NCBI GenBank assembly: GCA_964016885.1
Contig: OZ024743.1
Location: forward strand, 353,400,001 to 353,464,000
Source: Eledone cirrhosa
Lineage: Eukaryota
Length of the DNA: 64,000 nt
Reading direction: 5' to 3'
The notes under the pieces were generated by a model that saw nothing but the letters and a program-made list of their open reading frames with translations, had not been told where the DNA came from and did not search any database. The position numbers were made by a program, and so were the translations under genes. This document shows positions 1 through 697 of the stretch, piece after piece (positions within the stretch are counted from its first letter, which is position 1; every line of letters starts with the position of its first letter).

Positions 1-661
1 CTCGTCTGATTCCAGGTAATCTTGTGGTGTAACGGTAGCTCGTCTGATTCCAGGTAATCTTGTTGAGTAACGGTAGCGTGTCTAATTCCAGGTAATCTTG
101 TGGTGTAACGGTAGCTCGTCTGATTCCAGGTAATCTTGTGGTGTAACGGTAGCGTGTCTAATTCCAGGTAATCTTGTGGTGTAACGGTAGCTCGTCTGAT
201 TCCAGGTAATCTTGTTGAGTAACGGTAGCGTGTCTAATTCCAGGTAATCTTGTGGTGTAACGGTAGCGTGTCTAATTCCAGGTAATCTTGTGGTGTAACG
301 GTAGCGTGTCTGATTCCAGGTAATCTTGTGGTGTAACGGTAGCTCGTCTGATTCCAGGTAATATTGTGTTGTAACGGTAGCTCGTCTAATTCCAGGTAAT
401 CTTGTTGAGTAACGGTAGCTCGTCTGATTCCAGGTAATATTGTGGTGTAACGGTAGCGTGTCTAATTCCAGGTAATCTTGTGGTGTAACGGTAGCGTGTC
501 TAATTCCAGGTAATCTTGTGGTGTAACGGTAGCGTGTCTGATTCCAGGTAATCTTGTGGTGTAACGGTAGCTCGTCTGATTCCAGGTAATCTTGTGGTGT
601 AACGGTAGCTCGTCTGATTCCAGGTAATCTTGTGGTGTAACGGTATCGCATCTGATTCCAG
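1..661 (+). repeat. 38-bp minisatellite (~17 units, runs off the window start) derived from the 5' half of tRNA-Trp
   Basis: Unit GTAATCTTGTGGTGTAACGGTAGCTCGTCTGATTCCAG aligns without gaps to GT + tRNA-Trp nt 1-36 (GGCCTTGTGGCGCAACGGTAGCGCGTCTGACTCCAG). Confidence 0.92.
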
Positions 662-697
662 TTCGGAAGGTTTCATGTTCGAATTTCGTTGGAGTCA
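626..697 (+). pseudogene. Degenerate tRNA-Trp(CCA) formed by the last minisatellite unit plus a 3' half
   Basis: 72 nt AATCTTG...GATTCCAGTTCGGAAGGTTTCATGTTCGAATTTCGTTGGAGTCA, colinear with tRNA-Trp; B-box-like GTTCGAAT; stems disrupted; T-run downstream. Confidence 0.8.

What the first reader, a model, noticed from the sequence alone, without database searches (positions are those of the whole stretch)
1..697. Minisatellite of concatenated tRNA-Trp 5' halves, broken at position 37/38 and capped by one 3' half
Seen: the 38-bp unit is 2 nt of leader (GT, as in the array's ...ATGT|GGCC) plus tRNA nt 1-36. It ends at CCA-G (G37 in standard numbering), and only the last unit continues into a 3' half with a B box and T-run. 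The structure is therefore (5' half)n + 3' half: at least 17 A-box-like motifs and one B box. Known: 37/38 is the canonical tRNA intron site, and anticodon-loop cleavage yields 5' tRNA halves. Inference: it arose either by reverse transcription/rolling-circle copying of a 5' half, or by slippage on an AG-GT microhomology (the pseudogene at 5379 has upstream CAAGGT). It could be a source of tRNA-half-like RNAs.
Basis: partly seen in the sequence, partly recalled or inferred. Interest (0 to 1): 0.75.

Follow-up and report, generated by a model that had tools for sequence, protein, structure and literature searches.

The report
Minisatellite from dead tRNA-Trp gene
The front half of a decayed tryptophan tRNA gene is repeated 65 times head-to-tail at a single spot in this animal genome; it likely arose by ordinary DNA duplication between two short matching motifs rather than from a cut tRNA, and is likely inert.

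Summary
Real, and larger than reported: 65 gap-free 38-bp units (2,470 bp, 1,808 bp of it upstream of the window), ending in the 3' half and genomic trailer of a tRNA-Trp pseudogene at the edge of a 56-gene tRNA-Trp cluster. All 64 junction matches in the genome lie in this one array. An RNA origin is not supported: 61 of 61 exact tRNA-Trp 5' halves run on into A38 (no intron, no loose halves), there is no target-site duplication, the trailer matches sister pseudogenes beyond the terminator, and all units share decay mutations, so a dead gene was likely amplified. The 37/38 break is where the motif TCCAG ends; two sister pseudogenes carry TTCCAG in their leader about one unit upstream, which points to microhomology-driven duplication (post hoc, and the present left edge lacks it). 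A 49-bp minisatellite made from unrelated DNA sits 46 bp away, and minisatellites are common genome-wide. The B box has lost C61. No expression test was possible. The scan noted the same layout before on other DNA (a Giardia tRNA-Ile array; SINE-head arrays in this genome). Ordinary minisatellite with an unusual seed.

The parts
1..661 (+). Last 17.4 units of the 65 x 38-bp minisatellite; the array begins at window position -1808 (G000:C4:353398192)
624..697 (+). Terminal unit plus 3' half = tRNA-Trp pseudogene, 19 of 72 bases differ from the gene at 1124; 4 of 7 CpG sites changed to TG/CA
   Evidence: no Rfam tRNA match
656..663 (+). TTCCAGTT at the right-hand breakpoint (G37 = 661); the same 8 bases stand in the leaders of sister pseudogenes
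677..686 (+). Damaged B box (G53 to position 62; C61->T)
   Evidence: sequence
698..724 (+). Genomic trailer with two T4 runs; its 17-mer at 708-724 recurs exactly behind the pseudogenes at +85245 and +89750
725..1123 (+). Spacer homologous to the spacers of other pseudogene-spacer-gene blocks of the cluster
   Evidence: global scores 36-80 against shuffles of -60 to -72, SD 10-13
1124..1195 (+). Intact tRNA-Trp(CCA) gene, second member of the block
2064..2071 (+). TTCCAGTT in the leader of a sister pseudogene (2060 copy); likely trace of the left-hand microhomology of the array's parent; also at -5577 before the pseudogene at -5568
2318..2426 (+). Unamplified paralog of the old repeat fragment that abuts the array's left edge and seeded the neighbouring 49-bp minisatellite
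3754..3968 (+). Longer unamplified paralog of the same old dispersed repeat

Best explanation
This is a single-locus minisatellite of 65 x 38 bp whose unit is the 5' part of a decayed tRNA-Trp gene copy at the edge of a tRNA-Trp cluster; it likely began as a DNA-level tandem duplication between a TCCAG motif just upstream of the gene and the TCCAG of its anticodon loop, likely grew by unequal exchange and gene conversion, and is likely silent. Steps: (1, shown) the copy is a genomic duplicate in a pseudogene-spacer-gene block; (2, shown for shared changes, inferred for order) it decayed first, since all 65 units and the 3' half carry the damage; (3, inferred) misalignment of the two TCCAG motifs made the first doubling, which puts the break after G37 for reasons of sequence, not tRNA processing; (4, pattern shown, mechanism inferred) exchange between units expanded and mixed the variants, sparing the two edge units; (5, inferred) no TFIIIC-driven transcription because the only B box is damaged.
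For: Single locus: 64 of 64 junction matches are in this array, control 0. No intron or free half: 0 matches stop at G37, 61 continue with A38. DNA duplicate: exact 17-mer trailer shared in register with two sister pseudogenes, reaching past both T4 runs, 3 occurrences in 264 kb; block homology to four other blocks. Dead before amplification: nt 1, 2, 3, 5, 11, 13, 31 differ from gene 1124 in all 65 units (nt 3 and 5 also vary among intact-looking genes); 3' half 10 of 36 changed; units differ from each other by 5.3% against 26% for terminal copy versus gene. Microhomology: TTCCAGTT ends 1 base before the start of pseudogene -5568 and stands in the leader of pseudogene 2060, and the same 8 bases stand at the right breakpoint; TCCAG frequency 0.0008 per base; the old repeat abutting the first unit has column-majority TCCAG at the junction over 8 copies. 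Local control: a 49-bp x 26.6 minisatellite 46 bp upstream comes from non-tRNA DNA with unamplified paralogs at 2318 and 3754 and a TATC direct repeat at its ends; 72-bp and 36-bp arrays lie within 9 kb. Background: 6 of 28 sampled 10-kb stretches hold such a minisatellite. Exchange: all four combinations of two variant sites occur (29, 21, 11, 2 units), and only the first and last units keep the ancestral GC at nt 23-24. Known model: short flanking repeats of 5-10 bp (PMC6947457, passages).
Against: The present left edge reads CTCCTC, not TCCAG; a 3-base loss must be assumed. Only 1 of 8 copies of the old repeat has TCCAG literally, and the nearest paralog reads CCCAC. The sister leaders would give a 39-bp unit; a 1-base deletion and further changes are needed for 38. 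The motif was found after the fact, and the automated count finds it in 1 of 122 leaders (the 2060 copy was seen by eye because a deletion shifts its coordinates). The left edge is in exact phase with the unit, which an RNA template-jump model also predicts. Tandem SINE heads restart at the SINE 5' end at many loci of this genome, a pattern whose mechanism I did not settle. Neighbouring units are not significantly more alike than shuffled order (21 against 15.7, p = 0.066).
Confidence: 0.85

Rival explanations
1. RNA-templated origin: a reverse transcriptase copied a pre-tRNA, jumped to the 3' end of a 5' half cut at 37/38 and so wrote (5' half)n + full copy; or a circularised 5' half was copied as a rolling circle.
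For: Unit ends exactly at G37 and starts within 2 bases of +1; the left edge is in phase. 3'-truncated tRNA retrocopies exist in mammals and end in loops (PMC5322556, passages). The genome holds LINE-type RT remnants nearby.
Against: No tRNA-Trp intron and no dispersed half; no target-site duplication (longest shared word is a 6-base T-rich one about 80 bases past the gene) and the host repeat does not resume downstream; trailer and spacer are genomic; units copy the pseudogene, not the working tRNA; described 5' halves are 30-33 nt, cut before the anticodon (PMC3654920, passages). Long unit-variant mosaics need DNA exchange in any case.
Confidence: 0.04
2. Repair-templated origin: the double-strand-break repair event that joined the old repeat fragment to the pseudogene also wrote the first tandem copy (polymerase-theta-type templated insertion, recalled mechanism), which explains the in-phase left edge without a lost TCCAG; later growth as in the main model.
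For: The old repeat's homology ends within 2 bases of the first unit; the region shows other truncations (left end of the 49-bp array).
Against: The paralogous block at 2318-2812 seems to share the same repeat-to-AATCT junction at about 83% identity, which would make the junction older than the array; this match is short and weak.
Confidence: 0.09
3. Functional locus: the stacked A boxes or the array's transcripts act as a TFIIIC-binding boundary or as a source of tRNA-half-like small RNAs.
For: 60 of 65 units keep G9-G10 and an A-box-like motif; the array lies at the edge of a large tRNA cluster; reads from three other samples cover a unit junction (3, 2 and 1 reads deep).
Against: A boxes bind weakly and need a B box 30-67 bp away (PMC11811891, passages); the only B box has lost C61, which by my mapping of that paper's numbering is a base-specific contact; units fold no better than shuffles (z +0.5 to +2.1); variants break D-stem pairs freely; 0 of 122 other Trp-like copies carry such a repeat.
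Confidence: 0.04

Closest known systems
SINE-derived satellites of squamates (Vassetzky et al. 2023, PMC10702118; passages and Discussion read)
   Same: Tandem copies of one part of a Pol III-type element with a longer terminal unit that runs on to the element's end; one minor variant matches the tRNA-related part.
   Different: Seed here is a tRNA gene pseudocopy, not a SINE; one locus, 38-bp unit; theirs are mostly multi-locus with longer units.
Minisatellites born between short direct repeats, often inside transposable elements (Haber and Louis model as reviewed in PMC6947457; Ahmed and Liang 2012, PMC3389668; passages)
   Same: Unit of 10-100 bp, single locus, mosaic variants, likely 5-8-bp flanking microhomology.
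   Different: Seed is a tRNA pseudogene; the left-hand repeat is inferred from paralogs and is not present at the edge today.
Plastid trnF(GAA) pseudogene tandem arrays (Poczai and Hyvonen 2013, PMC3786074; abstract and part 1 of 2 of Findings)
   Same: Tandem partial copies (32-73 bp) of a tRNA gene placed 5' of the gene body.
   Different: Plastid, 1-7 copies, centred on the anticodon domain, ahead of a working gene; here nuclear, 65 copies, 5' half, ahead of a dead 3' half.
Tailless tRNA retropseudogenes (Noll et al. 2015, PMC5322556; passages)
   Same: 3'-truncated tRNA sequence ending in a loop.
   Different: They are dispersed, flanked by target-site duplications and L1-made; this is tandem, in its parent cluster, without such a duplication.
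tRNA-related amphibian tandem repeats (newt PolIII/TAN, Xenopus OAX, Rana/polIII), as summarised in PMC10702118; originals not read
   Same: Tandem DNA with tRNA-derived sequence.
   Different: Units of 200-360 nt or longer, high copy, some transcribed in vitro; here a 38-bp single-locus unit without a B box.

Membership tests
Minisatellite (VNTR-type tandem repeat) | Head-to-tail unit of 10-100 bp | tested here: met
   38 bp x 65, 0% indels
Minisatellite (VNTR-type tandem repeat) | Locus-specific array | tested here: met
   64 of 64 junction matches at one locus
Minisatellite (VNTR-type tandem repeat) | Interspersed, recombinant unit variants | tested here: met
   11 unit types, four-way combinations of variant sites
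Minisatellite (VNTR-type tandem repeat) | Short direct repeats flanking the founding unit | tested here: inconclusive
   TTCCAGTT at right end and in two sister leaders; absent at today's left edge
Minisatellite (VNTR-type tandem repeat) | Copy number varies between individuals | not testable with these tools
   Only short reads at depth 1-3 from other samples
Tailless retropseudogene / RNA-templated copy | Target-site duplication | tested here: not met
Tailless retropseudogene / RNA-templated copy | Dispersed, without the gene's genomic flanks | tested here: not met
   In the parent cluster, with trailer and spacer homology
Tailless retropseudogene / RNA-templated copy | Copy of an expressed tRNA at the time of copying | tested here: not met
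   All 65 units share the pseudogene's changes; order of events is inferred
5' exon of an intron-containing tRNA (37/38 site) | tRNA-Trp genes with an intron after G37 | tested here: not met
   0 of 61 exact 19-mer matches; diverged genes would be missed
SINE-derived satellite (sSat) | Unit derived from a SINE | tested here: not met
   Unit and 3' half align to tRNA-Trp genes of the cluster
SINE-derived satellite (sSat) | Longer terminal unit continuing to the parent's end | tested here: met
   Terminal unit runs into 3' half and trailer
Active tRNA-type Pol III unit | A box | tested here: met
   A-box-like motif kept in 60 of 65 units; consensus recalled
Active tRNA-type Pol III unit | Intact B box | tested here: not met
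   C61->T and position 62 changed
Active tRNA-type Pol III unit | Cloverleaf fold | tested here: not met
   No RF00005 match at E<=10; predicted fold is not a cloverleaf
Active tRNA-type Pol III unit | Transcripts or Pol III occupancy | not testable with these tools
   No suitable data could be laid

The most novel reading that the evidence does not exclude
In this genome the 5' heads of Pol III units are a hotspot for tandem amplification in front of their own body: dozens of SINE copies show it, and this array would be the case on a true tRNA gene. If the restart near the transcription start reflects a transcription- or RNA-linked repair process rather than chance microhomology, the array records a little-described route by which Pol III promoters seed satellites, and read-through transcripts could release tRNA-half mimics.
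Probability: 0.07. Interest if true: 0.6.

Novelty: new member of a known kind. Interest (0 to 1): 0.16.

Why it matters
As it most likely stands it is a tidy case of minisatellite birth: parent, sister copies with the probable microhomology and an unrelated neighbour array are all readable at one locus. It warns that a break at the tRNA intron position can be an accident of sequence, and that tRNA-fragment and A-box scans will count 65 false hits here. It may serve as a polymorphic marker. It would matter more only if heads of Pol III units prove to be amplified by a transcription-linked mechanism, or if the array is transcribed.

Tried and rejected
Expression: no RNA holder listed; this is no evidence either way. 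Left junction in reads: not bridged by any record, no test. A genome-wide search for tandem A boxes of any tRNA type could not be run, so other tRNA-half arrays in this genome remain unsurveyed; only Trp-like copies were checked (122 copies in 264 kb plus 10 stretches of 10 kb, none with an internal repeat). Raw count of tandem SINE-head motifs (339) is below its reversed control (1,017), so the count itself was not used, only the read-out of the listed loci. Idea that the fragment left of the array is part of the neighbouring LINE: not supported, LINE homology stops at about 3726. Idea that the first unit's 5' bases come from the old repeat through a TGG microhomology: set aside because internal units keep tRNA nt 4-7. 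Idea that the unit is tRNA-Gln-like (recalled sequence): spacing between the D loop and anticodon arm and the 3' half are those of Trp. Hairpin-guided slippage: units fold no better than shuffles. Trailer alignments against single-base shuffles were weak (z up to 3.5) and were replaced by the exact 17-mer and block alignments. Nine literature searches returned no paper on a nuclear minisatellite made of tRNA-gene 5' halves; the library lacks most subscription papers and no supplements were read, so absence from print is not shown.

Full report
Setting. The window is G000:C4:353400001-353464000 of a 3.0-Gb genome. Other AI notes call the genome octopod; that fits my recall of its main SINE but I did not test it. 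Coordinates below are window coordinates; negative values lie upstream. ARAGORN finds 44 genes in the window and 56 in 264 kb around it, from -5147 to +89322, nearly all tRNA-Trp(CCA). The finding lies at the left, older-looking edge of this cluster, among pseudogenes and repeat fragments.

Observation. The array has 65 units of 38 bp from -1808 to 661, without indels. Eleven unit sequences occur, three make up 54 of 65, and units differ by 2.0 of 38 bases on average. Every unit ends at nt 36 of the tRNA (G37); the last continues into a 3' half to 697 and then a trailer with T4 runs. A 23-base junction pattern with one mismatch allowed has 64 matches in the genome, all in this array, control 0. 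Short-read contigs of one sample, which may be the assembly's source, show depth 37-110 on array pieces and 4 on the contig that joins the last unit to the flank. Reduced-representation reads from three other samples cover a junction 3, 2 and 1 deep, a thin sign that the repeat is not private to one animal. The left junction was not bridged.

The parent is a dead genomic duplicate. The terminal copy differs from the gene at 1124 at 19 of 72 bases, 4 of 7 CpG sites have become TG or CA, and C61 is T; Rfam's tRNA model does not detect it. Seven columns differ from that gene in all 65 units (two of them also vary among intact-looking genes). The first and last units alone keep the ancestral bases at nt 23-24, so the edges escaped homogenisation, yet they share the seven changes; I infer that decay came before amplification. 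A 17-base trailer word at 708-724 recurs exactly, in register, behind the pseudogenes at +85245 and +89750 and nowhere else in 264 kb; it reaches past both T4 runs. The whole stretch 624-1140 aligns with four other blocks of the cluster (scores 36-80 against shuffles near -60 to -72; a fifth block, 9100-9580, gave a negative score that is confounded by composition and was not used). So the copy was made as DNA.

Tests of the RNA route. A 19-base exact 5'-half pattern followed by any base but A has 0 matches; followed by A it has 61. There is thus no sign of an intron-bearing tRNA-Trp or of dispersed halves cut at 37/38 (diverged copies would be missed). Described 5' halves are 30-33 nt and cut before the anticodon (PMC3654920, passages). 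Tailless retrocopies are dispersed and carry target-site duplications (PMC5322556, passages); here the longest word shared by the left flank and the 100 bases after the gene is a 6-base T-rich one about 80 bases away, and the old repeat that abuts the left edge does not resume downstream.

Why the break falls at 37/38. The anticodon loop ends in TCCAG. The pseudogene at -5568, which is the pseudogene member of a homologous block, has TTCCAG followed by three bases and then its first base; the pseudogene at 2060 has the same leader motif; and the right breakpoint reads TTCCAGTT, the same eight bases. Independently, the old dispersed repeat that ends at the first unit has column-majority TCCAG at that point over 8 copies, which could explain both the junction and its phase. 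Against: today's left edge reads CTCCTC; only one of the 8 copies has TCCAG literally and the nearest paralog has CCCAC; the automated count finds the motif in 1 of 122 leaders, the second case being seen by eye; the argument is post hoc. With TCCAG at 0.0008 per base, a hit within one base of the needed place in one of three or four candidate parents has a chance near 1% (my estimate). Birth between 5-10-bp direct repeats followed by slippage, conversion or unequal crossing-over is the standard model (PMC6947457 and PMC3389668, passages).

The neighbourhood makes minisatellites from anything. A 49-bp x 26.6 array ends 46 bp before the first unit; its unit comes from the same old repeat, whose unamplified paralogs lie at 2318 and 3754, with TATC at both ends of the founding unit. 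Arrays of 72 bp x 22.9 and 36 bp x 10.4 lie within 9 kb upstream. Of 28 stretches of 10 kb taken at round coordinates (8 nearby on C4, 20 spread), 6 held a minisatellite of period 15-150 with 8 or more copies, 4 of them filling the stretch. With at least 122 further Trp-like copies and many other tRNA arrays noted in this genome (unchecked notes), one tRNA-seeded minisatellite is not surprising; none of the 122 has an internal repeat. All four combinations of two variant sites occur among units, as expected from exchange between units; clustering of like neighbours is not significant (p = 0.066).

A pattern that keeps a small door open. Prompted by earlier notes, I searched for tandem copies of the main SINE's head. 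The raw count is below its control (339 against 1,017), but 32 of the 43 loci in the first 100 listed rows are, by eye, duplicated SINE heads of 24-27 bp; 8 of 10 inspected loci (2 overlapping ones dropped from 12) show head-plus-body with restart at the SINE 5' end. This is the same layout as here and as in squamate SINE-derived satellites, where most arrays have a longer terminal unit (PMC10702118, passages and Discussion). Whether Pol III heads are amplified more than other DNA, and by what route, I did not settle.

Function. A boxes bind TFIIIC weakly and depend on a B box 30-67 bp away; template-strand bases that I map to positions 61 and 62 are read base-specifically (PMC11811891, passages; the mapping is mine). 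Both are changed here, so transcription from this promoter is unlikely. Units fold no better than shuffles. Expression could not be tested.

Verdict. Observation confirmed and extended. Best reading: DNA-level minisatellite seeded in a tRNA-Trp pseudogene, 0.85; first copy written during break repair, 0.09; RNA-templated, 0.04; function as promoter array or RNA source, 0.04 (this last is not exclusive of the others). Closest known: SINE-derived satellites, transposon-derived minisatellites and plastid trnF pseudogene arrays (PMC3786074, abstract and part of Findings). New member of a known kind; interest 0.16.

Noticed in passing
L011:6841-8145 (window -3159 to -1855): 49-bp x 26.6 minisatellite, 98% matches, amplified from an old dispersed repeat whose unamplified paralogs lie at window 2318-2426 and 3754-3968; TATC direct repeat at the founding unit's ends; left end truncated out of phase.
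   Followed up: partly
L011:1198-3222 (window -8802 to -6778): Two further abutting minisatellites, 72 bp x 22.9 and 36 bp x 10.4; four arrays within 9.5 kb.
   Followed up: no
window 9564-64000 and on to +73000: Homogenised tandem array of tRNA-Trp genes with higher-order units of about 1.9 and 2.2 kb, two trailer types, and a recurring pseudogene class whose first 13 bases are replaced (13676, 17767, 19653, 21539, 27835, 31926, 36017, 42025, 53599, 70106).
   Followed up: no
window 61592-61666 and +66095-66169: Gene copies with a 1-base insertion in the anticodon loop (ARAGORN: caat, caaa); probably pseudogenes.
   Followed up: no
L038-L042 (G000:C4:277.40-277.45 Mb): Second, older tRNA-Trp cluster with many decayed copies, two of which now read as Leu(CAA) and Ser(CGA) anticodons on a Trp body.
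   Followed up: no
G000 C1-C4, e.g. L098-L102, L105, L108, L109; C4:364548649 onward: Many SINE copies with the first 24-27 bases duplicated or amplified in front of the body.
   Followed up: partly
window 2968-3726 (- strand) and -4900 to -3600 (+ strand): Decayed LINE reverse-transcriptase C-terminal fragments with stops and frameshifts, beside tRNA genes.
   Followed up: partly
window 8193-8850: (TCT) x 220 microsatellite between the old edge copies and the homogenised array.
   Followed up: no
+84723 to +89750 (L023): Inverted pseudogene-spacer-gene blocks at the far edge of the cluster are homologous to the blocks at the near edge (-5568 to -5075).
   Followed up: partly
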